This document shows positions 7,120-48,640 of a stretch of 64,000 nucleotides of DNA, piece by piece (the first letter of the stretch is position 1; each line of letters starts with the position of its first letter). This stretch comes from Squalus acanthias. Lineage: Eukaryota. The stretch is taken from NCBI GenBank assembly GCA_030390025.1, contig CM059431.1, positions 143,656,001-143,720,000 of the forward strand. Direction: 5' to 3'. The translations under genes and the position numbers were made by a program. The notes beneath the pieces were generated by a model. It ran no database searches and was not told the origin of the DNA. It saw only the letters and a list, made by a program, of their open reading frames with translations.

Positions 7120-8820
7120 TTATTTGCAAATAAATGTCCAAGGAGTTTTCATCACCTGCTTCAGCTCTTCCCTGAATTTAGTTTGTGTAGCTGCATAAAT
7201 ACACGTGTTTGTACAGGAGCTCAAACACATGAGCATATATCCGGTTTCAGCGGCAATATAGGCAGGGGCTGCATAATCGCCTCTGTAATGCACGGTGCTT
7301 GTCAGTCTGGTAGTTAAATAAGTAACGGTAGTTGTCAGCCACAACAGTATAAAACTGGCCGATACACTGAAAAGTAAAACGATGGATTTCCTTCGGTTCT
7401 CTATCTCTGGATCGCTCTGATTCTCACTGCTGTGACCCCGGAGTCCCCTGCGGGCTCTACTGGCCACTAAAATACGTCTGGCTGTCAAACAATTAAACAG
7501 TAATATCAAAACATAACTAAGCCAAGAAAAACAAATGCTACGTAACCAGGAAAACGCCACACCAACAGGCGATGAAGAAAACTCCACTCTGGGTCGGCAA
7601 CCCCAGTGAACATTGTTAATTATTCGCTCAGGTTCAAATGCAAACCAAAAGAGGAGGCTCTGTAAACAGATCAGGACAGAGACCGTTGTTATAACCGCGG
7701 CCGCAGTTCTCACTGTGCAATTCTTTATTTTAAACTTCTCACAACATATAGCTACAAATCGGTCAAATGTGAACGAGACTGTAAACCACACCGACAAATA
7801 GAGGGCGACACATTGCAGCTATATAATGATCTTACAAACGACAGTGTAGGACAGGAATGTATGTGGAAAGTGATAACGTAAAATGCGATTCACTAATATA
7901 TTGATGATCATGACCAGGAGATCTGCTGTTGCCATGTCCACCATGTAGACAGAGATACATTTGGAAAGGTCGCAGTTTCCTCTGGAGAGAATCACGATTG
8001 TCAGTAGGTTCGCTGTGAGAAATAGGGAGAAGAGGTCAGTAACAGGGTCACTCAGTTAAATCTCACAGCATATTGTGGGGAAATGTTCAGATGTGTCCCT
8101 ACTTAGGGTTATGCACACGGATTGTTAGCATGAATATAGGCGAGGGTTAATGTATTTTGTTTAACATAAATTATTCATTGGACATTCAATATAGAGGGAC
8201 TGAAAATCCATCATCCTTCCAGCATACTTCACTCAGTCTTTGTCAAATATTAAATATTATTTCACGGCAATTAATGGAAAGATATAATTCAAATGAAACA
8301 TTCAGCTGAGACAGAAACGTTCAATCCATGTCCAAATTCCGCCGAGGGGAGTGGAGCATCTTCTTGAGTGGAAATTATTTCTCAAAGTCCCCTGTTGGGT
8401 GGAGGTGACTGCAGTCTGAGGAATTATCACATTAATATAGACAAGGAATAACGGCACAAATGAAGTGAATGTTATAGACACTGAGCAACACGTTCTTTAT
8501 TGATCTATGCACGGTTGGAGAGGCCGGGGAATTAGCCTCGCCCTCCCTCAGTATAGGGAGGAAGGTTGAGCGTCCGGTACAATGGATCTGCCCACCAGAA
8601 CAGCGCCCGCGCGGTCTGGAAGGATTCTCGCTAATATTCAGCGACTGATCCCGGTGGATGAATGAATTTGCAATAAGGACATTCTCAGAAGATGTTGCAT
8701 TAACACTCAGATACTCCACAGCTGTTAGGGAGCAGGATACATTGACTTACCGGGAACGGCAAAGGCACCGAGAAAATGATAGTAAATGTCCCTTATCTGT
8801 AGAATTGCTGGCCGTGCCAT
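7120..8820 (-). pseudogene. gpr139-like: Two-exon class A GPCR, GPR139/GPR142-like, copy 1; in-frame nonsense codon in TM3
   Basis: Exon 1 8820-8751 (MARPAILQIRDIYYHFLGAFAVP, G|gtaagt); intron 8750-8013; exon 2 from 8012 (cag|CG) ANLLTIVILSRGNCDLSKCISVYMV..ADLL; TAG at 7821-7819; then ORF 7120-7797 with FDRFVAIC, NTCIY, FREEL. Confidence 0.85.
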
Positions 8821-8899
8821 TGTTTTGTAGATTTGTGTGAAGATTGAGCGGCTTTACGGTTCCGACTAGAGGCAATCGGAGATCCGTAAATGCTCCCCC

Positions 8900-9085
8900 T
8901 TTATAGGACCGCCGCTGCCCCTGTGAGAAAATCATGTTACACAATAATTGGCGTTTGTTACAGTCACTTAACAAACAAGGGGCGATTTTCCCCTTCAGTG
9001 CGTCCCGGCCGCCACTGGGGAAATTGTACAATTTAGTCCATGAAACTCCGTCCATTAAAAACAATGAACGGAAAGTAATCCCAGA
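8900..9085 (-). promoter_or_regulatory. Putative promoter of GPCR copy 1 (TATA, CCAAT, conserved upstream block)
   Basis: TATAAA at 8905-8900 (80 bp from ATG), CCAAT at 8951-8947; same spacing and flanking sequence at 48719-48905. Confidence 0.65.
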
Positions 9086-9244
9086 GGGAATGTGCTCTGC
9101 GAATCTCTGGTGAAAACTGATGGCAACATCCCTCCAGGACTCTGCATTAGCTTCTTGAAGTCACATGTTAATTTGGTGAAATCGTCACTCATCCATTGTA
9201 CAACGATTTGCTTTGTACTGTGATGATGAATGATGATGAATCGG

Positions 9245-9795
9245 CTCTAACATGACTGACGATGATTCTAATCTTAAATTACTGATGGTGACACGGTGGC
9301 ATAGTGGTTTGCACTGTTGCCTCACAGAGCCAGGTACCCGGGTTCGAATCCGGCCCCGGGTGACTGTCTGTGTGGAGTTTGCACATTCTCCCCATGTCTG
9401 CGTGGGTTTCCTCCGGGTGCTCCGGTTTCCTCCCACAGTCCAAAGATGTGTGGGTTTGGTTGATTTGGCTATGATAAATTCACCCTTAGTGTTAGGGGGG
9501 ATTAAATACGTGGGGTTACGGTGATAGGGTGGGATATGTGTCAGTGCAGGCTCGATGGGCTGAAATGGCCTCTATCTGCACTGTGGGGATTCTGTGATCC
9601 TGTGATTCTGTGACGCTACTCTAACATTACTGGTGGTGACCCTTCTCTATCATTACTGCTGCTGACATTCATGTTGTTGATCCTAGATAACCTTACAGGT
9701 GATGACCCAACGCTAACACTACTGCCATGAATCTAGGCTACCATTGCTGGTAGTGATCCTACTGTAACATTACTGGGGGTGAACCTAATCTAACC
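9245..9795. repeat. Degenerate 26-bp satellite (ctactctaacattactggtggtgacc), interrupted by a SINE
   Basis: Units such as gacgctactctaacattactggtggtgaccc at 9612-9642; same family as 49050-55180. Confidence 0.75.
9287..9613 (+). mobile_element. tRNA-derived V-SINE (HE1-like)
   Basis: A box tggcatagtgg, B box gttcgaatc, V-domain gtgtggagtttgcacattctccccatgtctgcgtgggtttcctccggg, CR1-like tail with tgtgattc repeats. Confidence 0.9.
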
Positions 9796-9796
9796 T

Positions 9797-12700
9797 GCGC
9801 ACGTGTTCCACCTCTGAATTCCTTCCTTCAGGGGAACGGAAGTTCCGGTTTCCCGTGCATTCCTGAAACCGGAACTTCAGGTGGACTTACAGGTGAGTAC
9901 ACAGCGCGTACTCACCCGACAAGAGCCGAATTTCTGGCCCAAATTTTTTTCCGTTGCTAAAAATAAACTTAACTTTCTTTAAAGTATTTTTAAATGATAA
10001 ATCAGTGAAACATCTTTTAAAAACTTTTTTCAACTCTTATCCTGGTAAAAGCAGGCCTTACGCCTGCTCATAGAGTCATAGAGTTATACAGCACATAAAG
10101 AAGCCCTTCGGCCCATCGTGTCTGCGCCGGCCATCAAGCCGTATCTATTCTAATCCCATTTTCCAGCACTTGGTCCGTAGCCTTGTATGGTATGACGTTT
10201 CAAGTGCTTATCTAAATGCTTCTTGTGTGTTGCGAGGGTTCCTCCCCCTACCACACTTTCAGTCAGAGAGTTCCAGATTCCAACCACCCTCTGGGTGAAA
10301 ACGATTTTCCTCAAATTCCCTCTAAACCTCCTGCCCCTTATCTTGAAACTATGCTACCTGGTTATTGGCCCCTCTACTAAGGGGAAAAGTTCCTTTCTAT
10401 CTACGATGTCTATTCCCCTCATAATTTTGTACACCTCAATCAGGTCCCCCCTCAGCCTTCTCTGCTCTAGGGAAAACATCACTAGCCTGTCCAGTCTCTC
10501 TTCATAGCTGAAACGCTCCAGCCCAGCTATCATCCTGCGGAATCTCCTCTGCACCCTCTCCAATTCAATCACATCCTTCTATAGTGTGGTGACCAGAACT
10601 GCACACAGTATTCCAGCTGTGGAATAACTAGTGTTTTGTACAGCTTCATCATAACCTCCCTGCTCTTATATTCTATGCCTCGGCTAATGAAGGCAATATC
10701 CCATAGGCCTTTCTGACCACCTTATCTACCTGTCCTGCTGCCTTCAGGAATCTATATACATGCACACCAAGGTCACTCTGATCCTTTGTCCTTCCTAGAG
10801 TCCTACCATTCATTGTGTAATCCCTTGCCTTGTTAGTCATCCTAAAATGCATCACCTCACACTTTTCAGGGTTAGACTCCATTTGCCACAGATCTGCCCA
10901 TCTGACCAACCCGCCTATATCGTCCTGTAGCCTGAGGCTTCCCTCCTCGTTATTTACCACTCCACCAATTCTCGTGTCATCTGCGAACTTACTGATCATA
11001 CCTCCTACATTCAAATCTAATCATTAATGTACACTACAAGCAGCAATGTCCCCAGCACCGATCCCTGCGGTATAACACTGGACACAGGCTGCCAGTAACA
11101 AAAACAACCTTCGACCATCACTCTCTGCTTCCTGCCACTAAACCAATTTTGGATCCAATGTGGCAAATTGCCCTGGAACCCATGGGCTCTTAACTTCTTG
11201 ACCAGTCTCCCATGCGGGACTATGTCAGAAGCCTTACTGAAGTCCATGAAGATTACATCAACTGCACTACCCTCATTCGCACACCTAGTCAGCTCCTGGA
11301 AAAATTTAATCAAATTGTTTCGACAGGTTCTCCCCCTGACAAAGCCATGCTGACTATCCTTGAGTAATCCTTTCCTCTCCAAGTGGAGACTTATTCTGTC
11401 CCTCAGAATTTTTCCCAATAATTTCCCTACCACTGATGTTATGCTGACTGGCCTGTAATTCCCTCGTTTATCCCTACTACCCTTCTTGAATAATGGTACT
11501 ACGTTAGATGTTCTCAAGTCCTCTGGCACCTCCCCTGTGGCCAGAGAGTTCCTGAACATTTGTGTCCGAGGCCCTTTACTCTCATCCCTTGCCTCACACA
11601 GCAGCCTGGGATACATCTCGTCTGGGCCTGGGGATTTAACCACTTTTAAATCCGCTAACACCGCGAGTACCTACTCCCTCTCAATGCTAATTTGTTCAAG
11701 TATATCACAATCCCTCTGCCTGATTTCTATGCCTACATCATCCTTCTCCATATTGAACATAGATGCAAAATTTTCATTTAAAACCTCACCTACATCTTCC
11801 GGCTCTACACAGAGATTGCCACTTTGGTCCCTAATTGGCCCTACTCTTTCCATGGATATCCTCTTGCCCTTAATATACTTATAAAACAACTTGGGATTTT
11901 CCTTTATTTTGCCCGCCAGTGGTTTTTCATGCCACCTCTTCGCTCTCCTAATTTCTTTTTTAAGTACCCCTTGCACTTTCTATACTCCTCTAGGGCTTCT
12001 ACTGTTTTTAGTCCTTTGTACCTGCCAAAAGCCTCCCTTTTTTTCCTAATCCATTGTTGTATATCCCTTGACCACCAGGGTTCCCTGGACTTGTTGGTCC
12101 CACCCTTGACCTTTACGGGAACATGTTGGCGCTGTACTCTCTCTATTTCCTTTCTGAATGCCTCCCACTGCTCTGATGAGGATTTTACTACAAGTAACTG
12201 ATCCCTGTCCAATTTGGCCAGATCCTGCCTTATCATGTTAAAATCGGCCTTCTCCCAATTTAGAACCTTTATTTCCGTATCATCTTTGTCCCTTTCCATG
12301 ACTACCTTAAATCTCACCGAATTATGGTCACTGTCACCTAAACTCTCCTACTGACACTTCTGCCACTTGCCCGGCTACATTCCCTAGAATTAGGTCCAGT
12401 ACCGCCCCCTTTCTTGTAGGACTTTCTACATGCTGGCTCAAAAATCTCTCCTGGCTGCACTTTAATAATTCTGCACCCTCCACGCCTTTCAAACTCTGAC
12501 TATCCCAGTTAATATTGGGGAAGTTGAAATCCCCTACTATTATTACCCAATTATTTCTACACTTCTCTGAGATTTGCCTACATATCTGATCCTCTGTCTC
12601 CCCCTGACTGTTTGGGGGTCGATAGTTCACTCCCAGCAAAGTGCTTGCCACATTTTTGTTTGTAAGTTCTACCCATATGGCCTCATTAGAGGAACCTGCT

Positions 12701-13397
12701 AAGATATCATCTCTCCTTACTGCAGTAATTGCCTCCATGATCAAAATTGTGACAACCCCTCCTCTTTTACAAACCCCTCTGTCTCGCCTGAAGATACTAT
12801 ACCCCGGAATATTGATCTGCCAGTCCTGCCCATCCTTCAACCTTGTCTCTGTGATAGCAACAATATCAAACTTCCATGTGTTAATCAACACATTCAATTC
12901 ATCTGCCTTACTCGCAAGACTCCATGTATTAAAATAAATGCCATCCAGCCTTGCCATACTCCCTTGTGCCGTTACATATTTGCTCTGCCTTCCAGACTGA
13001 CTTGTTTTTTCCTCTATATTTGGCTGTGCATCACCACCTACTATAGCTCCACTCCGTATCCCATCCCCCTGCCAAGTTAGTTTAACACCCCTGCCCCCAA
13101 CAGCACTAGCAACCCTCCCCACAAGGTTGTTGGTCCCATTCTGGTACAGGTGCTTTTACCAGGCGAAAGAATTGTAAAGGTTTTCTGGGGTAGGAAGATC
13201 ACAAACACGTGGAACTATCCGCCCGCAGAGGCCCTTCTCCAGGGCAGGCGGAGGATCTGTCAAGAGCATTCTTGTCAGATCGGAAATGCCGCTTTTCAGC
13301 GCATGCGCTGTGCATGCATGAAACAGGCATTTCCGATGTCCCTATGGGTGGGTACACAGCCTGTACACACCCGTAGGGATCGTAATATCTGCGCCAC
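9797..13397. mobile_element. Fragments of diverged MITE-family elements (9797-10068, 13150-13397) split by a CR1
   Basis: Family hairpins (gagtacacagcgcgtactc, gaatttctggccc); the palindrome ctggtaaaagcaggc..gcctgcttttaccag is cut by the CR1 insertion. Confidence 0.55.
10069..13149 (-). mobile_element. CR1 LINE ORF2 (APE endonuclease and RT), frameshifted
   Basis: ORFs 12334-13122 (IVAITET, IVGDFN), 11017-11661 (NYRPVS, IPQGSVLG), 10673-11014 (KFADD); 3' tail at 10069. Confidence 0.93.
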
Positions 13398-13569
13398 TAA
13401 AATTATTCAGTTAGTTAAAGCAGAAGTGACAGATAAGCAACGTGTTAAGTTAAACGGTGTAAGAAAGACAGCATCAGGTCAAACGGTCAGGTTAGGATCT
13501 CTGTCCCAAATAAGAGTTTAATATCTGAACGTATGGTTATAAGAAAGAAAGTTTGCGAATTGGAGGTTC

Positions 13570-14787
13570 AAATGTGTCAAATTGATCCGAGTTTGCTGAT
13601 GATACAAAGCTAGGTGGGAAAGTAAGTTGTGAGCAGGATGCAAAGATGATGCAATGTGATATAGACAGGTTAAGTGAATGGGAAAGCACGTGGCAGATGG
13701 AATATAATATGGACAAATCTGAGGTTATTCAATTTGTTAGGAAAAATAGAAAAACAGAATTTTTTAAATGGTGAAAAATCGGGCCATGTTGGGATTCAGA
13801 GGGAACTGCGTGCCCTTGTACACTGCAAGTTAGCCTGCAGGTGCAGCAAGCAATTAGGAAAGCAAATGGGATGTTAGCCTTTATTAAAAAAGGATTGGAA
13901 TATAAGAGTAAATAAGTCTTAATGCAAGTATATGAGTCATAGAAACATAGAAACATAGAATCTAGGAGCAGGAGTAGGCCATTCGGCCCGTCGAGCCTGC
14001 AACACCATTCAATACGATCATGGCTGATCATCCAAATCCAGTACCCTGTCCCTGCTTTAATCCCTACAGTACACATATCCCACCCGACCCCCGTAACCCC
14101 ACGTATTTAATTCCCCCTAACATATCCCATCCTATCCCCATAACCCCACATATTTAATCCCCCCCTAACACTAAGGGTCAATTTATCATAGCCAAATCAA
14201 CCTAACCCGCACATTTTTGGAGTGACCAGTCCTGACATACTGTGTAAAGTTTTAGTCTCCTTATCTAAGAAAGGATATACTTGCCAAGAGGGAGTGCAAC
14301 GAATGTCCAACAGACTGATTGCTTGGTAAGAGGGGATTGTCCTATGAGGAGAGATTGTGCAGACTAGGCCTATATTCCCTATAATTTAGAAGAATTGAGG
14401 TGATTTAATTGAAACATTTAAAACTCTTACAGCGCTTGATAGGGTAGATGATGGGAGGAGGTTTCCTCTGGCTGGGGAGTATAAAACCAGGGACAGAGTC
14501 TCAGAATAACGGGTCGTTCATTTCGGATTGAGATGAGTAGAAATTTCTTCACTCAGACGGCGGTGCTTCTTTGGAATTCTCTACCCCAGAGGGCTGTGGA
14601 GGCTCAGTCGTTGAGTATATTCAAGACAGAGGTCGATAAATATTTGGGAAGGAAGGGAATTTAAGAGATATGTGGACAGTGCGGGAAAGTGGAGTTGAGG
14701 TAACAGATCAGCTCTGATCTTATTGAACGCCGGAGCCGGCTCTTAGGGACGAATGGCCTGTTCCTGCTCCTACTTCTTATGTTCTTA
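13570..14787 (+). mobile_element. CR1 LINE 3' fragment containing an antisense SINE/CR1-tail insert (~13937-14222)
   Basis: tttgctgatgatacaaag (FADDTK) through 3' tail ttcttatgttctt; insert starts catagaaacatagaaacatagaa and ends in the HE1-like 3' segment. Confidence 0.8.
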
Positions 14788-14875
14788 AATACAGCTTAGA
14801 GGGTACGACATGTTGGCCATTACTGGGACATGCTTTATTCTGGTCATGATCGGGAGTTAAAAATTCCAGGTTGTA

Positions 14876-16510
14876 AGAACATAAGAATATAAGAAATAGG
14901 AGCAGGAGTAGGCCATTGGGCCCCTCGAGCCTGCTCTGCCATTCAATAAGATCATGGCTTATCTGAACTAGACCTCAACTCCACTTTCCTGCCCGCTCCC
15001 CATAACCGTTGACTCCCCTATAGTTCAAAAATCTGTCTATCTCCAACTTAAATATATTCAATGACACAGCCTCCACAGCACTCTGGGGTAGAGAATTACA
15101 AAGATTCAAGACCTTCCAAGGGAATACATTTCTCCACGTCTCCGTTTAAAATGGGCAAGCCCTTATTATGAAACTAGGCCGCCTAGTTCTAGATTCCCCC
15201 ATGAGGGGAAACATCCTCTCTGTATCTAAACTGTCAAGTCCCCTCAGAATCTTACATGTTTCAATAAGACCACCTCTCATTCTTCTGAACTCCAATGAGT
15301 ATCGGCCAAACCTGCTCAACATTTCTTCATAAGACACCCCCCTCATCTCAGGAATCAATCTAGTTAACCTTCTATGAACTGCCTCCAATGCAAGTATATC
15401 CCTCCTTCAATAAGGAGACCAAAAGCGTTCGCAGTACCCCAGGTGTGGTCTCACCAACGCCCTGTACAGCTGTAGCAAGACTTACCTACTTTTATACACC
15501 ATCCCCTTGCAATAAAGGCCAACATTCCATTCCAATGAATTGTTGTAACTGCATGCTAACTTTTTGTGTTTCATGTACAAAAACCCCCAGATCCCTCTTT
15601 ACCGCAGCATTTTGTAGTCTCTCTCCCTTTTAATAATAATTGTTTTTTTTATTTTTCCTACCAAAGTGGATAACCTCACATTTTCTCACATTATACTCCT
15701 TCTGCCAAATGTTTGCCCACTCACTTAACCGATCTGTATCCCCTTGCAGATTCTTTGTGTCCTCCACACAGCTTGCTTTCCCAGCTATCTTAGTATCATC
15801 AGCAAATGTGGCTGCATTACACTCGGTCCCTTCATCCAAGTCATTAATATAGATTGTAAATAGTTGAGGCCCCAGCACTGATCCCTGTGGCACCCTACTA
15901 GTTACAGTTTGCCAACCTAAAAATTCCCCATTTTTCCCGACTTTTCTGTTGCCTGTTAGTTAGCCAATCCTCTAACTATGGTAATATATTACCCCCAACT
16001 CCGTGAGCTCTTAACTTGGGCAGTAACCTTTTATGTGGCACCTTATCGAATGCCTTCTGGAAATCCAAATACTACACATCTGCTGGTTCCCCTTTAACCA
16101 CACTGCTCGTTACATCCTCAAAGAACTCTAGCAAATTTGTCAAACATGATTTCGCTTTCATAAAACACTGCTGAATCTGTTTGATTGTATTATGATTTTC
16201 AAAATGTCCTGCTGCTAATATCTTAATAATGGACTCCAGCATATTCCCACTGACAGATGATAGTCTAACTGGTCTATAGTTTCCTGCTTTCTGTCTCCCT
16301 CCTTTCCTGAATACTGGCTTTTCATTTGCGGTTTTCCAATACGTTGGGACCTCTCCAGAGTCCAGGGAATTTTGGTGGATTACAAACAATGCATCCACTA
16401 TCTCTGCAGCCAAATATTTTAAGACCCTAGGATGCTGGGCATCAGGTACAGGAGACTTGTTCATCGTTAGTCCCATTAGTTTGCCTAGTACTTTTTCTCC
16501 AGTTATAGTG
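14876..16510 (-). mobile_element. CR1 LINE RT and 3' end
   Basis: ORFs 16072-16476, 15630-15893 ([14 protein letters not shown]), 15146-15388; taagaacataagaa tail. Confidence 0.9.
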
Positions 16511-17292
16511 TTCTGTAGAACGGATCGGGAAACTGTAAGAGGAGGAGTGACAGCCTCAATGATTAAAGGTATATTACAGCATTAGTGAGAGAGGATATAG
16601 TTAAGGTAAAGTAATCCGCTGGGATTCTGTGTTGGGAATTTAGGAATAAGCAAGTACTTAAAACTTTAACGGGAGTTGTCTACAGGCTTCCCGATAGCAG
16701 CAATAAAGATACTGCATGTGTAACTTCAGAGATTAGAGCGGATTGCAGCAAAAGCAGGGTTGTTATAATTGGAGACATTAATTTTCAGCTAATATGGGAA
16801 GAGCAGAGTAGCTCAAGTCGGAAAAGTAGTGAATATATTGATTACATTGAAGATAGTTTTCTGGAACAATATGTTGAAGAACCAACAAGATTTAATACAT
16901 TTAGTAATGAACAATGATCCAGTCTTAGTTAATAATATAACAGTAAGAGAACTATCATCTAACAGTAAGCATAATATGATCGAATGCAATGCTCGGTTTT
17001 GAAGGAGAAATGCAACACAATTTTAAGAATCTCCATTTTGGTAACATGAACGGGAAGAAACAGAGACTGACGACAGCAATTTGGTTAAAATTGTTATCGA
17101 GTAAGACTACAGATGAAAAGTGGGAGGTGTTCAGAAAATAATTTAGCTTAATACAAGACCAGTGTATTCCCCTAAAGGGCAAGAGCTTTACATACCAATT
17201 AAAACGGAAATGGTCGACATAGAGTTGAGAGATAAATAAAATTATAGGAAATAGAGTGAAACCTTGCAAAGAATAGTGTAGATCCAGAGGGG

Positions 17293-34055: not shown

Positions 34056-34059
34056 TCAT

Positions 34060-36580: not shown

Positions 36581-37199
36581 TAGGTGTAGCTGATCTTAGT
36601 CTTGCTTAGGCACATAAGATTCTAGCATTTTCTCTGGGCATAGAATGAGGTGTTGGTAGAGAAGAATTTTATATATTTCTTAGAAATAATGAGGTTGTTC
36701 CACTTCTCCGGTCATTTTCAATCTTGCAAATTAAGGTTGGAAATCAGATTTGCTTTGATGTCCACTTCACATGCTCATTTTTAGCTATGTTGAGCTCAGA
36801 TGTTCGGCCTTTGACTTACTTCTAGATTTCTCAAGAACTGAAAGTGCTTGTCATGTAATAGGGTCCAGCGCTTTATTTTATCAAGAGAAGCTCAATCTGA
36901 CCTGCAATGGACCGTGGTAACACGTTACCATAAACGTGATTTACAAAGATTGCAATGGGAGAGTTTTACTCCACCTTTATTACAGACCTGCTCAATGTGA
37001 CACTTTGCTCCTCTTCTCTTCTGGCTACTGGTGTGTATCTACAACCTGGAACTGGTTAACCGGAGACAGTTACGCTCTGGCGCTGATTATGCTGATCGGA
37101 TTCATGTTCGTTTCGCTGTTCCTTTCAAAATGCTACTCCAGGTAAATGTTACTCTGACAGCGGAAGATGCAGTGGAACAAAAACAAAGGGAAAGTGACG

Positions 37200-37560
37200 T
37201 AAAGGGATAATACTAGGGAGACTGAAAGAGTCAGATACAGGGAGAGAGAGCAGAAATAGATGAAGGAAGCTAGATAGTATCAGAAAGAGAGACAGACATC
37301 CTCAAATAGACAGCGAGACCTAAGAGAAAAACACAGAGACAAGGAGAGACAGAAACAGAGAGAGGGGGCTTAAAGCGAAATACAGGCGAAGCAGTGGGAC
37401 AGAGATATAAAGAAGCAGAGAGAGAGAAGAAAGGCAGGTACAGAAAAAGAGAGCGAGGAGTCCAAGAGAACGGCAGGAAAAAAAAGAAAGGCAGAAAGAA
37501 AGAGAGCGAACGAGATTTTGAGACAAGAGAGATACAGCGAGAGAGAGAGAGAGAGTTTGA
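37200..37560. repeat. GA-rich low-complexity tract
   Basis: Purine-rich, ending in (ga)n at ~37538-37555. Confidence 0.8.
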
Positions 37561-37778
37561 AGGAGACTATTATCAGTGGAGGGGTAGGTATTTAACCATG
37601 GAGGAAGATTTCTGCAGGTGCAGTTTGCCAGATGTAAAATAATGCTAAATTGTGACTGAGGAGACGAGGAAACTGCTCATCCACACATGGTATCCTGGGC
37701 TGTGCTGATTTTCTTCCTGCATTTTTCAGCACCAAAACTACCCTATCGATGAAGGAGAAAAAGAAACTAGAAGCAAAC

Positions 37779-39902
37779 CGTCATACAGAACAGAATGGAC
37801 TATTGCAAAGAAGCATACCGACAACTGGGCAACCAGGAAGACTACAGACAGTTACCCGCAGATCCGACCAAAGAACACACCCGTCAACTCAATAGTCTGA
37901 TCAAGACCTTCGATCCAGACCTTCAAAGCCTCCTACGCGCTCTCATCCCACGTACTCCCCGCGTAGAAGACTTTTACTGCCTCCCAAAGATACACAAAGC
38001 CAACACACCCGGACGTCCTATCGTATCAGGCAACGGAACCCTGTGTGAGAACCTCTCTGGGTACGTCGAGGGCATCCTGAAAGCCATCGTACAGGGAACC
38101 CCCAGCTTCTGTCGCGATACTACAGACATCTTGCAGAAACTCAGCACCCATGGAAAAGTTGAACCAGGAACACTCCTCGCCACGATGGATGTATCGGCAC
38201 TCTACACCAATATCCCCCACGATGACGGCATCACTGTGACAGCCTCAGTACTCAACACCAACAACAGCCAATCTCCAGACGCCATCCTACAACTCATCCA
38301 CTTCATCCTTGACCACAATGTCTTCACCTTCGACAACCAGTTTTTTACCCAAACACACGGAACAGCCATGGGGACCAAATTCGCACCCCAATACGCCAAC
38401 ATCTTCATGCACAAGTTCGAGCAAGACTTCTTCGCTGCACAGGACCTCCAACCAACGCTGTACACCAGATACATCGATGACATCTTCTTCCTTTGGACCC
38501 ACGGCGAAGGATCACTGAAAGGACTACACAATAACATCAACAGGTTCCATCCCACCATCAAACTCACCATGGACTACTCCTCAGAATCGGTTTCATTCTT
38601 GGACATACGAATCTCCATCAAAGACGGACACCTCAGCACTTCACTCTACCGCAAGCCCGCGGACAACCTCACGATGCTCCACTTCTCCAGCTTCCACCCT
38701 AACCACGTTAAAGAGGTCATCCTCTATGGACAAGCCCTGCGAATACAGAGGATCTGCTAAGACGAGGAGGAACGCAATGGACACCTACGGACACTGAAAG
38801 ACGCCCTCGTGAGAATGGGATATGACGCTCGACTCATCGATCGACAGTTCCGACGGGCCACAGCGAAAAACCGCATAGACCTCCTCAGAAGTCGAACACG
38901 GGACACAACCAACAGAGTACCCTACGTCGTCCAGTACTTCCCCGGAGCGGAGAAACTACGCCATGTTCTTCGCAGCCTTCAACATGTCATCGATGACGAC
39001 GAACACCTTGCTAAGGCCATCCCCACGCCTCCACTACTCGCCTTCAAGCAGCCACCTAACCTCAAAAATACCATCGTTCGCAGCAAATTACCCAGCTGTC
39101 AGGAGAACAGCGAACACAACACCACACAACCCTGCCACGGCAACCTCTGCAAGACATGCCAGATAATCAACACAGATACCATCATCACACGTGAGAACAC
39201 TACCCACCAGGTACATGGTACATACTCATGTGACTCGGCCAACGTTGTCTACCTGATACGTTGTAGGAAAGGATGCCCCAGAGCATGGTATATCGGCGAG
39301 ACCATACAGACACTGAGACAACGTATGAACTGATACTGCACAACAATCGCCAGGCAGGATTGTTACCTCCCAGTCGGGGAACACTTCAGCAGTCAAGGAC
39401 ATTCACCCTCGGATCTGCGAGTTATCGTTCTCCAAGGCGGCCTTCGAGACACACGACAACGCAAAATCATCGAGCAGAAACTGATAGCCAAGTTCCGCAC
39501 CCATGACGACGGCCTCAATAGAGATCTCGGGTTCATGTCACGCTACAGACGGTGACTCGACATCGTTGTCTGTCTTTCCAATTTAAAAAAAAAACACAAA
39601 ATAAAGAAAACCAAAAAAAAAGGTTAAAAGCTCAACTGCAGATGGCAGGATTTGACACGTTGGACCCCCTGTGAGCCACCTCATTGTCTTGGCTGTGCTC
39701 TGGTGTGTCTTTGATGTAATGCCTCCCTGAAAGATTGTATCTCTGCAGACAAATTGCTTTCTGTGTTTATATACTGTGTAATACTGTAGATTCCCTCATT
39801 GTACCTTTACCTGACAAAGGGGCAACAGCTCCGAAAGCTCGTAATTTTAAATAAATCGGTTGGACTATTACCTGGTTTTGTGCGACTTCTCATTTATGTG
39901 CA
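37779..39902 (+). mobile_element. Penelope-like retroelement (RT plus GIY-YIG), 5'-truncated, in-frame stops
   Basis: ORF 37795-38760 (GRPIVS, DVSALYTNI, GTAMG, RYIDD), ORF 38809-39333 (VVYLIRC..WYIGET); terminal repeat with hammerhead motif. Confidence 0.93.
39807..39844 (+). ncRNA. Minimal hammerhead ribozyme motif (core G-to-A variant)
   Basis: TTAC CTGACAA A GGGGC AACA GCTCC GAAA GC TC GTAA; stem I TTAC/GTAA. Confidence 0.68.
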
Positions 39903-40282
39903 ATGTGTTGTGGTTGAGAAAAAGATGAATTTTCCATGTCTTCCTGTCCTCTCTCTAATTCTAAAACTCTACCTATTTTCTTCTCTGAATCTACATTTGC
40001 ATTACATTTGCCTTTTAGTGGCCCCGTATTTACCTTCTGTACTTGCATATCTGTTTCTCGACAATTACTTTCACCAGACATTCCAGTTTTTGATGCAATT
40101 CATTCTTGAATTTCCTTTATTAACACGGGAACACTCCTTTCTTTGTTTCATGCACAGCTCTATGAGATGTACCTCTATCAGTGTGTCTCTGAACAGGAAC
40201 TGAGCTAAAACTGACCAGCAGTAGGACTTTGGAAAGTGAGACATTAATATGATACGATTTCTAACTCGGGGCTGCCATGAGC

Positions 40283-42680
40283 GCACGGTGGTACAGTGTT
40301 TATGTTACTGGGCTAGTAATGCAGAGGCCTGTGATAATGATCTGGAGACGAGAGTTCAAATCCCACCATGGTAGCTGAGGGATTTAAAATCAGTTAATCA
40401 AATAAAAGTCTGGATTAAAAAGCTAGTATCAGTAATAGTGACCGTGAAACTATCGGATTGTTGTAAAAAAAATCTGATTCAATAATGTCCTTGAGGGAAT
40501 GAAATCTGCCGTCCTTACCTGGTTTGGCCTATATATGACTCCAGCTCACAGCAATGTGCTTGACTTTTAAGTGCCCTCTGAAATGGACTAGCAAGTCACT
40601 CAGTTGCAACAAACCGCTATGAATAAGAATAAATCCGGACGGGCCACTCGGCTTCACACCGTCTACGGACACAACAACAGCACAGCCAGCCCAGTCGACC
40701 CTGCAAAGTCCTCCTCAGGAACATCTGGGGATTTGTGCCAACATTGGGAGAAGCTGTTTCACAGACTAGTCAGGCAACAGCCTGACAAAGTCATACTAAC
40801 AGAATCATAACTTTCAGCCAATGTCCCAGACTCCTCCATCACCATCCCTGGGTCTGTCCTGTTCCACCGGCAGGACAGACCCAACAGAGGTGGCGAGACA
40901 ATCGGGAAGGAGTGGCCCTGGGTGTCCTCAACATTGACTCCGGACCCCATGAAGTCTCATGGGCAAGTTAAACAGCCTGCTGATTAACATCTACCGCCCT
41001 CACTCAGCTGATCAATCAGTACTCCTCCATGTTGAACACCACTTGGCAGAAGCACTGAGAGTAGCAAAGGCACAGAATGTACACTAGGTGGCGGTATCCA
41101 TTGTCCATCACCAAGAGCGGCTCGGTAGCACCACTACTGACCGAGCTGGCCGAGTCCTGAAGGATATAGCTTCCAGACTGGGCCTGCGGCAAATAGTGAG
41201 CGAAGCATGGAAAACCCTTCATGACCTCGTCCTGACCAATCTACCAGTCGCATATGCATCTGTCCGTGGTAGCAGTGACCACCACACAGTCATTATGGAG
41301 ACGAAGTCCCGTTTTCACACTGAGGACACCCTCCATCATGTTGTGTGCCACTACCATCGTGCTAAATGGGAAATTCGGAACAGATCTAGCAACTCAAAAC
41401 TGGGCATCCATGAGGCGCTGTGGGCAATTAGCTGCAGCAGAATTGTATTCCATCACAATCTGTAACCTCATGCCCAGCATTTCCCTCATTGTACCATTAT
41501 CATCAAGCCAGGGGACCAACCCTCATTCAATAAGTTGTGCAAAAGAGCCTGCCGGAGAACCACCATGCGTACCGAAAAATCAGTTGCCAAACTTGGGAAG
41601 ATTCAACACAGGACACTGGAAGCAGCCTGCTATAGACAGAGCTAAGCGATCCCAAAATCAACGGATCAGATCAAAACTCTTCAGTCCTGCCACCTCCTGT
41701 CGTGAATGGTGGTGTAAAAATAAGCAACTAACGGGAGGAGGGGGTTCCATGAATATCCCCATATTCAATGATGGCGGAGCCCAGAACGTGAGGCTAAAAG
41801 ACAAGGCTTGCACAAATCTTCAGCCAGAAGTGCCGAGTAGATGTTCAATTTTGGCGTCCTCCTGAGGTCGCCACCATCAGAGAAGCTAGTCTTCTTCCTA
41901 TTCGATTCCATCACTTGATACCAAGAAACGGCTGAGCGCTCTGGATACAACAAAAGCTATGGTCCCCGACAAAATTCCGGCTATCGTGCTGAAGACTTGT
42001 GCTCCAGAACTAGCCACGCCTCTGGCCAAGCTGTTCCGGTACAGCTTCAACACTGGTATCTATCCAACAATATGAAAAGCTGCCCAGGTATGTCCTGTCC
42101 ACAAAAAGCAGGACAAATCCAACCTGGCCAATTACCGCCCGTTCAGTCTACACGCAATCATCAGCAAAGTGATGGAAGGTGTCAAGTCGTCAAGTGGCAC
42201 TTACTCACCAATAACCTGCTCACCGATGCTCAGTTTGTGTTCCGCCAGATCCACTGGGCTCCAGACCTCATTACAGCCTTGGTCCAAACATGAACAAAAG
42301 AGCTGAAATCAGAGGAGAGGTGAGAGTGACTGCCCTTGAAATCAAGACAGCATTTGACCGGTTTGGCTTCAAGCAGCCCTAGTAAAACTGAAGCCAATGG
42401 GAATCAGGGGAAAAATCTCAACTGGCTGGAATCATACCTAGCACAAAGGAAGATGTTTGTGGGGGTTGGAGATGAATCATCACAGCCCCAGGACAACGTT
42501 GAAGACTTGTGCTGATAAGCGGCAAGTAACTTTCGCGCCACACAAGTGCCAGGCAATCGCTATCTCCAACAAGAGAGATTTTAATCACCGCCCCTTGACA
42601 TTCAACGACATTATCATCACTGAATACCCCAGCATCAATATCCTGGGGTTCTCCATTGACCAGAAACTTAACTATGATGC
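40283..42680 (+). mobile_element. LINE (APE plus RT, decayed) with tRNA-like 5' head
   Basis: A/B-box-like tggtacagtg (40289) and gttcaaatc (40354); endonuclease remnants (VILTES, DLVLTN, SDH) and RT remnants at 41950-42450. Confidence 0.75.
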
Positions 42681-43305
42681 TCTGCTCATTATAATAGATT
42701 GATCTCTGCAGCCCAACGTCCCCCCTCCCATCAACCTCTTCATTATAAATGGACCAAACTACCTAGATGCATCTGTTTGAGGGGACAGGCCAGCATGGCC
42801 TGCTTATTACAGCAACGTTCATTTATATACCGCATTTAAATTAATAAAACGCCCCAAGGCGCTTCCAATGAGCGTAATCAGACACAAAAGGGCTAAGGAC
42901 CCAAAGAAGGAGACAGGTGGGCAGGTGACCAAAAGCGTGATCAGAGGTAGGTTTTAAGGAGAGTCTTAAAGGAGAGGAGAAATGCAGAGTTTCAGGGAGG
43001 CAATTTCGGTTTTTAGAACGTATACAACTAAAGGCACGGCTGCCAATGTTGGGGCGAAGAATGTGGAGGATACACAGGAGGAAATTTTTGCTCATCCTTG
43101 AATGTAGTGCAGACAAGCTATTTGACAACACAGAGACAGTGGAGGAGTTAAGAGAGTTGGTGGTGAGGTAGAGTTGTGTGTCTTCAGCATACACGTGGAA
43201 TCTGGAACAATAGCAAAATACTGCGGCTGCTGGAAAACTGAAATAACAACAGAAAGCGCTGGAAATACTCAGCAGGCCAGGCAACATCCGTGGAGAGAGA
43301 AACAG

Positions 43306-43342
43306 AGTTAACATTTCAGGTCGAAGACCCTTCGTCAGAACT
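43306..43342 (-). ncRNA. Minimal hammerhead ribozyme motif
   Basis: Minus strand AGTT CTGACGA A GGGTC TTC GACCT GAAA TG TT AACT; stem III palindrome ACGT altered to ATGT. Confidence 0.72.
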
Positions 43343-43444
43343 GAGAAAAAAGCAGGAAATGAAACAGATGAAAAAGCATGATTGGAGGCTGGGGGAGGGA
43401 ATAAATGAACAAAAGGGAAGGTAAGTGAGAAGTAAAGAGACAAT

Positions 43445-44208
43445 GGCACGAAAATTAGACCTAATACGCGAGAGTACGCACTGTGTACTCTCGCATTTTA
43501 GGTCTCCAATTGCCGGTTTCCTGCATGCACTGCGCATGCGCGGGAAACCGTCACTTCGTGAATTCAAAAGGGGGCGGTTCCTAAGTGAACCGCGTGCGCG
43601 CTACAGGCTGCGCGCACGCAGTGCACTTAGTTATTTTTTCAGTTTTGAACGCGCAGGTAAGTGTTGAAGATTTTACACATAAAGAAAGCAGGCGTAGGAC
43701 CCCCTTTTAACAAGGTAAGTAGTTCATTACGTGTTTTTAAAAAAAAATTTCAACAGGTTTATCTTTTTTAGCGACTTTAAAGAAAGGTAAGTTTATTTTT
43801 ATAACTTTTAAAAAGATTTTAAATTTTTTCAAAAATTAAATTTTTTGTTTAAAGTTGTTAATTTATTTAACTATACTTATTTTATTAATGTGATGGTTTT
43901 TTCTTTAATTTAATTGAGGTTTAGCTGTTCTTTTGGGGGTTTGTAATATTCATAGCTTTGACAGCTCTTGCCGTCAAAACGATGAATGAAAGATGGTGTG
44001 CTGCCATTGGCTCTAACTGAATCACGTGATCCCAGAGCTCGCACGAACTAATTGCGTCTCTGGGTCACGCAAGCACTGCACAGTTGCATGTGGCAGAGGG
44101 CTTGAATCTAAAGTTCATGTGGGTCCGGAGGAAAAAGGTAGGCGCGGAGTGAGATATCGCGGGGAAGTCTTACCCCCGCGGGAACGCTCACTGTTTAATT
44201 TCTGGGCC
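43445..44208. mobile_element. ~765-bp MITE (same family, opposite orientation to 20355)
   Basis: aat|ggcacgaaaatt...aatttctgggcc|att; empty site recognisable in the sister PLE at ~49805 (agagacattgagag). Confidence 0.85.
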
Positions 44209-45299
44209 ATTAAGAGATATTCGAGGTGAGACGAGATGGTAATAGGACAGGATAAGAAACAATAGATGGATCAAGATGAAGTGTGAAATGCGCTGGCAGA
44301 ATGAAAGACAGCTGCAATGTGGGAGATGGAAATAAAAGGAAAAGGCACAAACCAAAAGTGTGGATTAAAAATATATAAATATGGTAGGGGCAGAGGTTAT
44401 GATTTGAAATTGTTGAACTCGATATTGAGTCCGGAAGGTTGTAAAGTGTCTAATCGGAAGATGAGGTGCTGTTCCTCGAGCTTACGCTGAGCTTCCATGG
44501 AACAATGCAAGAGGCCGAGGACGGTGAGGTCTGAGTGGGCATGGAGCGGTGAATTAAAATGACAGGCGACCGGAAGCTCGGGGTCACCCTTACGGACTGA
44601 ACGGAGGTGTTCCGCAAAGCGGTGGAATCTGATGTTGTGTTTCCGGCTGATGTCGCCAAGGAGCAGCATGTAGATGCGAAATAGAAGGATCAATGAGTAT
44701 ACCTTTGGGGTTCGAGGTAACGGTCCGAGAGCGCGAGGACAAGCCATTGCAGGCTATTCTCTGGCTCAGACTGCATCGGTAAGAGTGGAACCAGACGAGG
44801 GCAGTTCCACACAGCTGGAAAATGGAGGAGAGGCGTGGAGAAGATTAGTGTGGTTAGCCGAGTCAAAGACGGAAAGAATGAAGAGGAATAATGCAACATG
44901 GTCACAGACACTGGGGATATAATTTGTGACTTCGTAAAGGGCCGTTTCAGGTGCTGTGCAAAGGAAGAAACTTGATTGGATAGATTGAAGCAGGGGACTT
45001 GCGGGATAGATGGACACAAATTTGGGAGGCGACAATAATTTCAAGTATTTAGAAAGGAATATGATGATGGAATGGGGCGGTAGCTTGCAAAAGTCAGAGG
45101 AGTCCAGGGTGGATTTGTCAGGAGTGACTAATGGCGGCAGATGTGAAAGCGAGGGGGACAGTACCAGAGCAGAGGGAACCGTTCACAATATCAGATAACC
45201 TGGGGCGAGGAAGAGAAACTGGATGGTCAGCAGTTTAGTGTGAATGGGGTTCAAGCAGCAGGAGGTGGTGTTCGTGGACAACATGAGCTTACACGATGG

Positions 45300-45800
45300 G
45301 TAATAGTGGAATTAACGGCAATACAGTAAGTGTTTAATTTAATTACAGGACAGGTAAAATTAGGGGAATGCAACAACTCTTTAATTAAAATAGAAGAAAG
45401 GAGACTTAAGGGGAATACAACAATTGCTTACTTATTAGTAGAATAACGGGTACTATAGGGAAGCACAGTAAATGTTTAATTAAAAATAGAGAACAAGGTC
45501 ATTTTGAGGAATGCAGCAATAATTTAATTAAAATAAAGTAAAGGTAACTTTACAGGAACACAGTAACTATTAAATTAGAAATAGAGAAGATGGGAATTTA
45601 GGGGAACACAGTAACTGTGTAATTAGAAACTGGGGCCCGTGGAACGTACCAGCAATGTATGTCCAAGTAGGTGACAGGGAAGACAGCAACTGTTGAATAA
45701 CAAAATTACGTCACGGGAATGTCCGGAAAACACAGCGACTGTACTGAGTAATAGAGAAATTAAGGGAACACGGACACTGTTGAATTAGGAACAGGGGGCA
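45300..45800. repeat. Degenerate AT-rich tandem repeat (~45-bp units)
   Basis: Recurring aggg(g)aacacagtaact..ttaattaaaatagag. Confidence 0.6.
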
Positions 45801-46853
45801 GGAGAATCCCAACCATATGGGACTGAATTTGACACGGTAATGTAATGGTTAACCTGTTCATTCTTTGCTCTCTATTTTACATGTTGATATTAGATGATGA
45901 GGTTGATTACACATCGCCTTCTCACGATTGTAACTGGGTGCAGATGCATCGCTGACTGATAGTATTAAAACCCCTGCCTGCTGCCTGACTCGTGACTTAA
46001 ATACTGTTGGCCGTCTGAATCCAGTTAAATGAGAATGTGCCTATTACACAGAACAGCCCGCAATTCAACACCACTTCATTCTGAAGCTGGATGCCAACCG
46101 GACTGGCAGAGCACGGGCTCCACGGGAAATGAAACCATGAGGGGTTTGGCATTTTGAACCAATGCAATATAACATTAGCAGATTCAGGACAGTCTGACTG
46201 ACCCTTACTTCATAAAAACCCCCTCTATTGGCGTTAGAGTATTTAAGGCCATCACAAAATAACATCCTAACAGCATCATATTTCTATCTCGACCTATTCT
46301 ATGGCGCAGATCTCTACCTATTATTTTTACACATGTTCGCACTCTCTGGAGCCACATTAACCATTTCATGTCGTGGTGATGTCAGCGTAACTGACCATGT
46401 CATGGACCCGTGCTCCGGGGCATTTCATCATACATATCACATGCTGGTTGCTTCACCTACAATACGTCACTTCTCCACACACATCATCCAGTACAAGATC
46501 CATCAAACGATCGGCGATCTGGAGTTGCTTCTTTAGAATCTCCCCTTGAATGGTCACAATTTTTCGTGTAGTGAGTGACCAAGCTATCAAATACATTCTT
46601 CTCATTGTTCAGTACAAGCAAGTTCACAACAATCTCCGAGAGAAAGTTATCAATTAACTATCTTAAGTAAATTTTCCTGAATTTCACTAGATTGTGCATT
46701 GACAACAGACTAGTATATTTTGGCGAGTGGTGCCCAGGGGATTTAAGTTAAAAAGATAGAAGCAGACGGATTCCATTAGCTGAGATATCAAAAACTAACG
46801 ACCATAGATAAAAGAAATGTCAGAGATATTTAAGTGAGGTTTGCTTTAATTTT

Positions 46854-48640
46854 TCATTTTTTAACTAAATTCAGAATGAATGTCCAAGGAGATTTCACCA
46901 CGTTCTTTAGCTCTTCCCTGAATTTAGTTTGTGTAGCTGTATAAATACATGTGTTTGTACAGGAACTCAAATACATGAGCATATATCCGGTTTCAGTGGC
47001 AATGTATGCAAGGGATATATAATCGCCTCGATACTGCGCCGTGTTTGTCAGTTTGGTAGTTAAAAAGCTGTCAGCCACAACACAATAAGACTGGCCGATA
47101 CACTGAACAGTAAAATGATGGATTTCCTTCGTTTCTCCATCTCGGGATCGCTCTGATTCTCACTGCTGTGACCCAGGAGTGCCCTGCGTGCTCTACTGGA
47201 CACCAAAATGCGCCGGACTGTCAAACAATTAAACAGAAATATCAATGCAAAAGGAAGCCATGGAAGTAAAATACTTTTTATCCAGCAGTATGCTACACCT
47301 GCAAGCGAAATAAAAAAGGTCACACTGTAGCGGCAACCCCACAGAACATTGTTACTTATTCGCTCAGTTTCATATGCAAACCAAAAGGGGATGTTCTCTA
47401 AACAGATCAGGACAGAGACCGTTGTTATAACCGCGGCCGCAGTTCTCACAGTGCAATACTTTGTTTTAAAGTTCTGACAACATATAGCTACAAATCGATC
47501 AAATGTGATGGAGACGGTAAACCACACCGACATATCCAGGGTAGCAGGATTCATACACAGAATTAACTTACAAACGGCAGTGTAGTTCAGGAATGAATGT
47601 GGAAAGTGATAACTGAAAGTTTGATACGCTATTACATGAAAGACAATGAACAGTAGATCTGCTGTTGCCATGGCCACCATGTAGACAGAAATACATTTGG
47701 AAAGTCCGCAGTTTCCTCTGGAGAGAATCACGATTGTCAGTAGGTTCGCTGTGAGAAAGAGGGAGAAGAGGTCAGTAACGGGGACACTCGGATAAATCTA
47801 ACAGCACATTGTGGGGATATGTTCTGAAGTGTCCCTACATAGGGTCATCGACACTGATTATTTCTTTATAAAATAGCGGATCGTTGGACAATTTGTTTAA
47901 AAGAGATAAAACATAGAACCCTGGCGATAGAGGGGCTGAATGTCGGCTATTTCCAGCAGTCAGACATCGTCACGTATTAAATATAATTTACAAACAATGA
48001 CTGGAAAGATATGAATTCAAATAATACATTCAGCTGAGACACAAACATCTGATGTAGGTCGAAACTCTGCGCTTTTTCTATTTCTAATGGCCCCGAGGGA
48101 GCTGCTCGGTAACAGAGCGGGAGCTGGAGGAGCCGCGAAGGTTCTTTACAGCCGAGGGGAGGGGAGCAGCTTCCTGAGCGGCAATTATTGCTCCAAATAT
48201 CATTCACAATCCTCTGATGGGTGGAGGTGGCTGCAGTACAAGGAATTATCAAATTAATCTAGACAGGGTACAACGGTACAGATGAAAGGATTACCATGGA
48301 CACTGAGCAACACATTCTTTCATGATCTATGTACTATTGGAGGGGCCGGAGAATCAGCCTCGCCCTCCCTCAGTACAGGGAGGAAGATTGAGCTCTGGTC
48401 TACCGACCACAACAGCGCCTCAGTGGCCGCGCGGACTGATACGATTCCCGCTGATATTCAGCAACTGAACCCGTTGAATAAATGACTCAGCAATGAGGAC
48501 ATGCTCGGAATTTGTTACATTAACACTGAGATAGTCAACAGCTATTAGGTAACAGGATGTATTGACTTACCGGGAACCGCAAAGGCTGCGAGAATAGGAT
48601 AGTAAATGTTGTTTAGCTGTACCATTGTTGGCAGTTCCAT
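46854..48640 (-). pseudogene. gpr139-like: Two-exon class A GPCR, GPR139/GPR142-like, copy 2; 10-bp frameshift deletion after TM6
   Basis: Exon 1 48640-48571 (MELPTMVQLNNIYYPILAAFAVP, G|gtaagt); intron 48570-47749; exon 2 from 47748; ORF 47060-47731 ends LWLTAF*, TM7 and C-tail continue in ORF 46854-47078; 10 nt shorter than copy 1 at ~47066. Confidence 0.85.

What the first reader, a model, noticed from the sequence alone, without database searches (positions are those of the whole stretch)
7120..48640. Paralogous GPR139-like receptors conserved inside, divergent on the ligand-facing side: candidate receptor repertoire
Seen: cytoplasm-facing segments are nearly identical (ANLLTIVILSRGNC, TVRTAAAVITTVSVLICL, GHSSENQSDPE, ETGYMLM.LSSCTNTCIY.ATQTKFREELK). 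The N-terminus, outer TM2 (VMIINILVNRILRY vs FIVFHVIAYQTFSY), TM3 and ECL2/TM5 (RPRVEFSSSPVGVAFSWLRSICFSW vs RYSVTFFISLAGVAYCWIKSILLPW) differ strongly. Known: mammalian GPR139 and GPR142 are single-copy sensors of aromatic amino acids. Inference: tandem copies, very short N-termini, pocket diversification and pseudogenes fit a birth-and-death sensory or immune receptor repertoire of unknown function in cartilaginous fish.
Basis: partly seen in the sequence, partly recalled or inferred. Interest (0 to 1): 0.8.

Follow-up and report, generated by a model that had tools for sequence, protein, structure and literature searches.

The report
Sharks' hidden thousand-gene receptor family
The window holds two broken copies of a shark cell-surface receptor family that has at least 1,769 copies in this genome, about half of those sampled intact, with fast-changing ligand pockets; it is likely an undescribed chemical-sensing repertoire in animals thought to have few smell receptors.

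Summary
Observation confirmed, but both window genes are pseudogenes (copy A: TAG in TM3; copy B: 10-nt deletion in TM6). They belong to a huge two-exon class A GPCR family: two independent exact motifs give 1,769 and 1,803 genome matches (controls 0 and 3); overlap suggests about 2,500-2,900 loci; 49 of 93 motif-picked loci have an intact main exon. The same genome has about 70 V2R-type genes. Relatives occur across sharks, rays and chimaera, auto-named 'probable GPR139', but true GPR139 and GPR142 are separate single genes. The family is a sister lineage with a salamander relative and lacks GPR139's Trp/Phe-binding residues except W6.48. Variation is concentrated on the outer half (1.92 vs 0.76 bits). 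One large clade shows strong positive selection at pocket sites (omega about 7 on 13% of sites; tree-free pocket omega 2.4); the window's own clade only weakly. Part of the 'conserved inside' pattern looks like gene conversion. Tissue is unproven: the run richest in family contigs also holds a spliced V2R transcript, a weak olfactory hint. Ten literature searches found no description.

The parts
7120..8012 (-). Gene A exon 2 (N1.50 to C-terminus); pseudogene
   Evidence: PF00001; translation and splice sites
7819..7821 (-). In-frame TAG in TM3 of gene A (Tyr codon in intact paralogue L002)
8013..8750 (-). Gene A intron, 738 nt, GTAAGT..TCACAG, phase 1; same position as in true GPR139 and GPR142
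8751..8820 (-). Gene A exon 1 (23 codons: very short N-terminus plus start of TM1)
8900..8905 (-). TATA box upstream of gene A; TATAAA in 29 of 30 clade promoters
9610..9794 (.). 26-bp repeat array upstream of gene A, part of the duplicated cassette
46854..47748 (-). Gene B exon 2; pseudogene
   Evidence: PF00001
47060..47067 (-). 10-nt deletion (between 47067 and 47066) in TM6 of gene B and resulting stop at 47060-47062
   Evidence: alignment
47749..48570 (-). Gene B intron, 822 nt, GT..AG
48571..48640 (-). Gene B exon 1
48719..48724 (-). TATA box upstream of gene B
49060..55192 (.). 26-bp repeat array upstream of gene B (about 18 + 99 copies), interrupted by a reverse-transcriptase element at about 49,990-52,640

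Best explanation
The two window genes are dead members of a class A GPCR family of at least 1,769 loci in this shark genome that likely works as a chemical-sensing receptor repertoire, most likely in olfactory or other chemosensory cells. Shown: a two-exon gene, sister to GPR139/GPR142, has been copied as a promoter-plus-gene cassette into clusters on many chromosomes; about half the copies are broken; the G-protein face is nearly fixed and the pocket-lining positions of TM2, 3, 5, 6, 7 and ECL2 are hypervariable and, in the largest tested clade, positively selected. Inferred: all members drive one shared G protein (Gq or Go, as GPR139 couples to Gq and Gi), while each recognises a different water-borne ligand, probably with sparse one-or-few-per-cell expression; gene conversion helps keep the inner segments alike.
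For: Size: 1,769 exact matches to FDRFVAICC, control 0; 1,803 to CTNT[CF]IY, control 3; list overlap 61 of 100/93 gives about 2,500-2,900 loci. Intact exon 2 in 49 of 93 motif-picked loci, 53%, CI 42-63%. V2R-type class C genes: 102 PF00003 matches, about 70 clustered on C5. Entropy outer 1.92 vs inner 0.76 bits over 89 members <90% identical, p 2e-24; 17 positions aligned to GPR139 ligand contacts 2.44 bits. Own GY94 site models: B46 clade (25 sequences) omega 7 on 13% of sites, M8 vs M8a LRT 461, 29 of 32 selected sites outer; window clade (63) omega 1.75 on 14%, LRT 34, 15 of 17 outer. Tree-free pocket omega 2.42 (1.61-3.59) vs inner 0.43 in B46. Short N-terminus. Transcription hint: run X1 lays 167 exon-concentrated family contigs against 32, 7 and 32 in three other runs, X7 has a joint to the exon-2 acceptor; X1 also holds a contig that exactly skips a 106-nt V2R intron and X2 a 917-nt V2R exon contig, X3 none, X7 short pieces. 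No 'receptor 139' gene among bamboo-shark spleen/liver/kidney cell-type markers (PMC11372145 supplement search).
Against: No tissue label exists for any run; RNA status is guessed, the runs are of other organisms at mostly 80-95% identity, n=4, and contig depth cannot rank genes; testis, brain/olfactory bulb or rectal gland could also carry V2R transcripts (PMC11979771 passages report V2Rs outside the nose). X3 and X7 hold family contigs with no or few V2R pieces, so expression is not confined to V2R-rich samples. The window's own clade has pocket omega 0.93 (0.69-1.28) and clade C3 0.64, i.e. relaxed rather than positive in the tree-free test; C3 M8 vs M8a is marginal (LRT 4.7). Omega about 7 is stronger than usual for odorant receptors and typical of host-pathogen genes (own knowledge). 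No O/E-type promoter site in 0 of 30 promoters. PMC11979771 found no GPCR among its 50 top olfactory-sample genes.
Confidence: 0.5

Rival explanations
1. An innate-immune or barrier sensor repertoire, working like mammalian MRGPRs or formyl-peptide receptors on granulocytes, mast-like cells or nociceptors and detecting microbial or parasite peptides.
For: Very strong positive selection in one clade (omega about 7); peptide-receptor ancestry and fold hits to peptide receptors; family contigs in runs without V2R; earlier unchecked notes place NLR/CARD arrays 11-14 Mb further along the same chromosome.
Against: No member among bamboo-shark immune-organ cell-type markers although other 'probable G-protein coupled receptor' names occur in that sheet; this is weak because sparse expression and 3' counting of near-identical genes hide such families, and epigonal/Leydig organs were not sampled.
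Confidence: 0.25
2. A non-nasal recognition repertoire: gamete, gonadal or skin/gut receptors for conspecific or dietary cues.
For: V2R co-occurrence in X1/X2 is also what testis would give (own knowledge); GPR139/142 are nutrient sensors of brain and pancreas (PMC5430874 abstract for GPR139; GPR142 recalled).
Against: No direct evidence; the size of the repertoire is best paralleled by olfactory families.
Confidence: 0.12
3. A mostly neutral expansion: a duplication-prone cassette (26-bp satellite, retroelements) multiplies a gene whose outer half is simply relaxed.
For: About 47% broken; near-identical neighbours; satellite upstream of clade genes (earlier finding e1-7939187); outer omega <=1 in two of three clades; silent sites also vary by region.
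Against: Inner omega 0.34-0.43 in all three clades (purifying selection); pocket omega 2.4 with CI above 1 in B46, against 0.77 at neighbouring non-pocket outer TM sites; family retained and diversified in sharks, rays and chimaera.
Confidence: 0.1
4. The count is an assembly artefact (uncollapsed haplotypes).
For: Many copies are on unplaced contigs (18 of 38); 10-20% of densely sampled genes have a >=99% twin (29 to 23, 30 to 27, 19 to 17, 28 to 24 clusters).
Against: 171 distinct intact sequences give 122 clusters at 95% and 89 at 90%; other species' proteins give 2,025 clusters at 90% identity. Haplotypes could at most about halve the count.
Confidence: 0.03

Closest known systems
GPR139 and GPR142 (human GPR139 cryo-EM 7VUG; this genome's own copies at C18:26.7 Mb and C24:7.87 Mb)
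   Same: Only PDB sequence hit (E 1.8e-7); same phase-1 intron just before N1.50; sister group in the tree; D2.50, DR3.50, W6.48, N7.49, Y7.53 kept.
   Different: 22-24% identity; single-copy and 88% identical to human versus thousands of copies; F3.33, H5.43, R6.51, N7.38 (mutagenesis in PMC5430874 abstract, PMC8807744 part 1) not kept; family has C3.25 and an ECL2 Cys that GPR139/142 lack, and lacks P6.50.
NCBI/UniRef automatic models 'probable G-protein coupled receptor 139' of sharks, rays and Callorhinchus; salamander XP_069092602.1; coelacanth XP_005988539.1; Branchiostoma 'GPR139'
   Same: Same family (120 of 120 listed homologues are sharks or rays; chimaera XP_007902368.1 nested inside); salamander gene is its sister (99.7/100).
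   Different: These are name transfers, not a described family; the salamander gene forms one 90% cluster of 5 records from three species, i.e. conserved and low-copy; the coelacanth-type paralogue is single-copy in this shark too (C17, 62%).
Vertebrate chemoreceptor repertoires (OR, TAAR, V1R/ORA, V2R/OlfC, T2R)
   Same: Tandem clusters, birth-and-death, about half pseudogenes, short N-terminus, conserved G-protein face and variable pocket.
   Different: Not homologous beyond class A (Pfam gives only 7tm_1 above cut-off); independent origin from a peptide-receptor-like lineage; one coding intron and TATA promoter; 10-40 times the shark V2R count.
MRGPR and FPR expansions of mammals (recalled)
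   Same: Lineage-specific class A expansions with short N-termini and strong positive selection.
   Different: Different ancestry; tens rather than thousands of genes; MAS1-related receptors are reported missing from cartilaginous fishes (PMC8455134 passage).

Membership tests
Class A (rhodopsin-like) GPCR | PF00001 match, seven helices, D2.50, D/ERY, W6.48, NxxxY, TM3-ECL2 disulphide | tested here: met
   AlphaFold model of exon-2 protein pLDDT 69, helical bundle, hits class A receptors
GPR139 / GPR142 orthologues | Orthology: grouping with GPR139 or GPR142 | tested here: not met
   GPR139+GPR142 form their own clade 100/100 with L031, L032; family lies outside
GPR139 / GPR142 orthologues | Trp/Phe-binding residues F3.33, H5.43, W6.48, R6.51, N7.38 | tested here: not met
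   only W6.48 kept (92%); the others are among the most variable columns
GPR139-related superfamily | Nearest named relatives, shared intron position | tested here: met
Known olfactory families (OR, TAAR, V1R, V2R) | Sequence homology to one of the four families | tested here: not met
   Pfam gives 7tm_1 only above cut-off; PDB gives GPR139 only; profile search beyond the family gives GPR139-like and unnamed invertebrate receptors
Chemoreceptor repertoire (functional class) | Large clustered family with many pseudogenes | tested here: met
Chemoreceptor repertoire (functional class) | Diversification concentrated at ligand pocket | tested here: met
   positive selection robust in one of three clades
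Chemoreceptor repertoire (functional class) | Sparse expression in sensory neurons | tested here: inconclusive
   unlabelled contig runs only; V2R co-occurrence in X1, X2
Chemoreceptor repertoire (functional class) | Activation by environmental chemicals | not testable with these tools
   needs heterologous assays
Immune GPCR repertoire (MRGPR/FPR-like) | Leukocyte expression | tested here: inconclusive
   no marker hit in PMC11372145 supplements; PMC10529500 supplement held no marker table

The most novel reading that the evidence does not exclude
Sharks and rays smell with a previously unrecognised, independently evolved olfactory receptor family of the order of a thousand intact genes, derived from a GPR139-related ancestor, which would overturn the view that they have one of the smallest vertebrate odorant-receptor repertoires and few GPCRs.
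Probability: 0.4. Interest if true: 0.95.

Novelty: new variant of a known kind. Interest (0 to 1): 0.83.

Why it matters
Papers read here state that sharks have a small olfactory repertoire resting on about 30 V2Rs (PMC11979771 passages) and a 'relative paucity' of GPCRs (PMC8455134 passage). One family in this genome has roughly 750-1,300 distinct intact-looking genes, the scale of a mammalian odorant-receptor repertoire, hidden under a misleading automatic name. Whatever tissue uses it, it is an independent origin of a mega-repertoire from a peptide/amino-acid-receptor lineage. If olfactory, it answers why sharks smell well with so few known receptors, and one in situ experiment or one look at an existing tissue panel tests it.

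Tried and rejected
A single pattern joining both motifs was not accepted; overlap was estimated from the listed first places only, which covers C1-C7 and may not represent C26, C28-C31 and unplaced contigs. No RNA holder was listed as such: no evidence either way. The A/B rows were read out of frame and are discarded (redone). The first site-model run had null models at the grid edge and is superseded; the B46 and C3 nulls still sit at the top scale value, so those LRTs are approximate. Support labels printed were shifted by re-rooting; supports are quoted (raw tree). PHI-like recombination test on silent sites was not significant in any clade (p 0.57-0.82), so gene conversion is suggested, not shown. 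O/E promoter site: 0 of 30; homeodomain-type hexamer 27 of 30 upstream vs 5 and 11 of 30 in intron windows, but these are inherited copies, not independent. ESM Atlas only returned the family's own clusters and FMRFamide-type receptors. Fold search was uninformative beyond class A. Catshark tissue-expression supplement unreadable; whale-shark supplements 1-12 of 24 searched, no hit; PMC13188829 supplements no hit; one search opened an unrelated paper by a wrongly recalled DOI; two searches were too loose to be useful. L296 gave no open frame in the script and was dropped from the last tree.
Full report
Observation. The window holds two minus-strand, two-exon class A GPCR genes 40 kb apart. Both genes are broken: A by a TAG at 7819-7821 in TM3, B by a 10-nt deletion in TM6. 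They differ at 21 of 143 inner-half and 56 of 119 outer-half residues. The rest of the window is retroelements and a 26-bp satellite.

Size of the family. A protein search of the own genome returned 150 of 150 scored places at E<1e-94 out of 4,293 first-look candidates (candidates are not copy numbers). An exact degenerate pattern for FDRFVAICC matches 1,769 places, control 0; an independent TM7 pattern 1,803, control 3. In the part of the genome listed by both, 61 places are shared among 100 and 93, which scales to about 2,500 (union) to 2,700-2,950 loci; this rests on C1-C7 only. Clusters lie on C1, C3, C5, C6, C7, C12, C18, C21, C26, C28, C29, C30 and many unplaced contigs. Of 93 loci picked by motif rather than score (60 hand-picked from the first 100 listed, 33 from two codon-variant patterns), 49 have an intact exon 2 by an automatic rule, 53% (42-63%), 7 of 13 on unplaced contigs; exon 1 was paired only in part (found in most window-clade genes; 2.4 and 9.4 kb upstream in two others). 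That gives about 930 intact exons among motif-bearing loci and up to about 1,500 overall; removing the 10-20% with a >=99% twin leaves roughly 750-1,300. For scale, PF00003 has 102 matches here, about 70 in V2R-like clusters on C5.

What it is. The only solved-structure hit is human GPR139, and public shark and ray proteins of this family (2,025 clusters at 90% identity among 3,028 candidates; all 120 listed are elasmobranch) mostly carry the automatic name 'probable GPR139'. But the true GPR139 (C18; 88% identical to the human protein) and GPR142 (C24) are separate genes, each found once by the motif search, each beside a divergent class C gene as expected from GPRC5B/GPRC5C synteny (recalled). 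A profile search of 1.8 billion representatives found, beyond the family, proteins from salamanders, coelacanth, a teleost and amphioxus (20 of 150 looked up). In the final tree (38 sequences, 276 columns) GPR139+GPR142 are one clade (100/100); the chondrichthyan family (98/98), which includes a Callorhinchus protein, is sister to a conserved salamander gene (99.7/100), then to a coelacanth-type gene that is single-copy in this shark too, then a C9 singleton and amphioxus genes (88/96). All shark lineages share the phase-1 intron before N1.50. The family keeps C3.25 and an ECL2 cysteine that GPR139/142 lack, and has lost P6.50. So this is an old sister lineage that stayed low-copy in bony vertebrates as far as these searches show and exploded in cartilaginous fishes; chimaera copy number was not measured.

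Inside versus outside. Over 89 members under 90% identity, entropy is 1.92 bits in the outer half and 0.76 in the inner half (p 2e-24); the most variable helix positions are 2.64-2.65, 3.29, 3.32, 5.39, 5.42-43, 6.51, 6.54, 6.58, 7.35, 7.39, the faces that line the pocket. The GPR139 contacts F109, H187, R244, N271 (PMC5430874 abstract; PMC8807744 first third of text) map on hypervariable columns; only W241 is kept. My own GY94 grid models (fixed relative branch lengths, NEB, not codeml) give omega 7 on 13% of sites in the B46 clade (25 of 33 sequences after de-duplication; LRT 461; 29 of 32 sites outer), omega 1.75 on 14% in the window's clade (63 of 77; LRT 34; 15 of 17 outer) and a marginal signal in clade C3 (15; LRT 4.7). 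A tree-free test on 33 pocket positions fixed beforehand (generic class A list, recalled) gives omega 2.42 (1.61-3.59) in B46, 0.93 (0.69-1.28) in the window clade and 0.64 in C3; inner omega is 0.34-0.43 throughout. Against a purely protein-level reading: in 29 matched genes four-fold sites differ at 0.090 in inner segments, 0.157 in outer segments and the intron at 0.153, suggesting conversion of the inner segments; a PHI-like test was not significant.

Expression. No holder is on record as RNA. Four guessed-RNA contig sets from other organisms laid on an intact paralogue show exon-concentrated cover; X1 has 167 contigs, X3 32, X5 7, X7 32, and X7 has a joint ending at the exon-2 acceptor. 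As a test I laid X1, X2, X3, X7 on a V2R: X1 has a 1,201-nt contig that skips exactly the 106-nt GT..AG intron, X2 a 917-nt exon contig, X7 short pieces, X3 none. The two best family holders are thus RNA from V2R-expressing tissue; most catshark V2Rs are olfactory-specific but some are not (PMC11979771 passages). This is a weak hint with n=4. No family gene appears among bamboo-shark spleen, liver and kidney cell markers (PMC11372145 supplement search, file cut after the shark sheet), also weak.

Mechanism. Best reading (0.5): a chemosensory repertoire in which a fixed cytoplasmic face couples every member to one G protein while pockets diversify; rivals are an immune sensor array (0.25), gonadal/skin/gut recognition (0.12), neutral expansion (0.10), artefact (0.03). 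Size, architecture, ancestry and selection are shown; tissue, ligand and G protein are inferred.

Literature. Searches for GPR139 with shark+expansion, 'receptor 139' with elasmobranch (13) or shark (78), GPR139 with cartilaginous fish (14), looser sets and topic searches found no description of the family; the library lacks most subscription papers, so a description may exist, and unread supplements (PMC11979771 entirely; PMC8455134 files 13-24; bioRxiv supplements) may hold the decisive expression table. PMC8455134 (passages) speaks of a relative paucity of GPCRs in cartilaginous fishes and PMC11979771 (passages) of a small olfactory repertoire, with 0 mentions of GPR139. PMC12294341 (passages) was irrelevant.

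Verdict. The two window genes are ordinary pseudogenes, but they expose an apparently undescribed, mammalian-OR-sized GPCR repertoire of cartilaginous fishes. New variant of a known kind; interest 0.83.

Noticed in passing
window 49060-55192: 26-bp satellite upstream of gene B expanded to about 117 copies and split by a reverse-transcriptase element with a GIY-YIG-like C-terminus (Penelope-type, label recalled); the same repeat lies 700-800 nt upstream of other clade genes (21 loci hit).
   Followed up: partly
L293 (G000:C17:37.41 Mb) and L294 (G000:C9:120.53 Mb): Two further single-copy, intact-looking GPR139-related genes; L293 is orthologous to unnamed coelacanth and teleost receptors, so jawed vertebrates had at least five GPR139-related lineages, three of them unnamed.
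   Followed up: partly
P0344 cluster (Pleurodeles, Ambystoma, Lissotriton): A highly conserved salamander receptor is the bony-vertebrate sister of the expanded family; a tractable single gene for finding the ancestral ligand and tissue.
   Followed up: partly
G000:C5:2.4-10.7 Mb (L254-L282): About 70 V2R-type genes, roughly twice the 32 reported for catshark.
   Followed up: no
window 63462-64000: 51-bp tandem repeat (10.6 copies) with long open frames on both strands; may be a coding repeat or a minisatellite.
   Followed up: no
window 37771-39330: Second reverse-transcriptase/GIY-YIG-type element, plus many CR1/L2-like fragments throughout the window (labels recalled).
   Followed up: no
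G000:C1:98.88-99.68 Mb (L128-L151): Homogeneous head-to-tail array of about 24 same-strand family genes about 30 kb apart, a recent local burst.
   Followed up: partly
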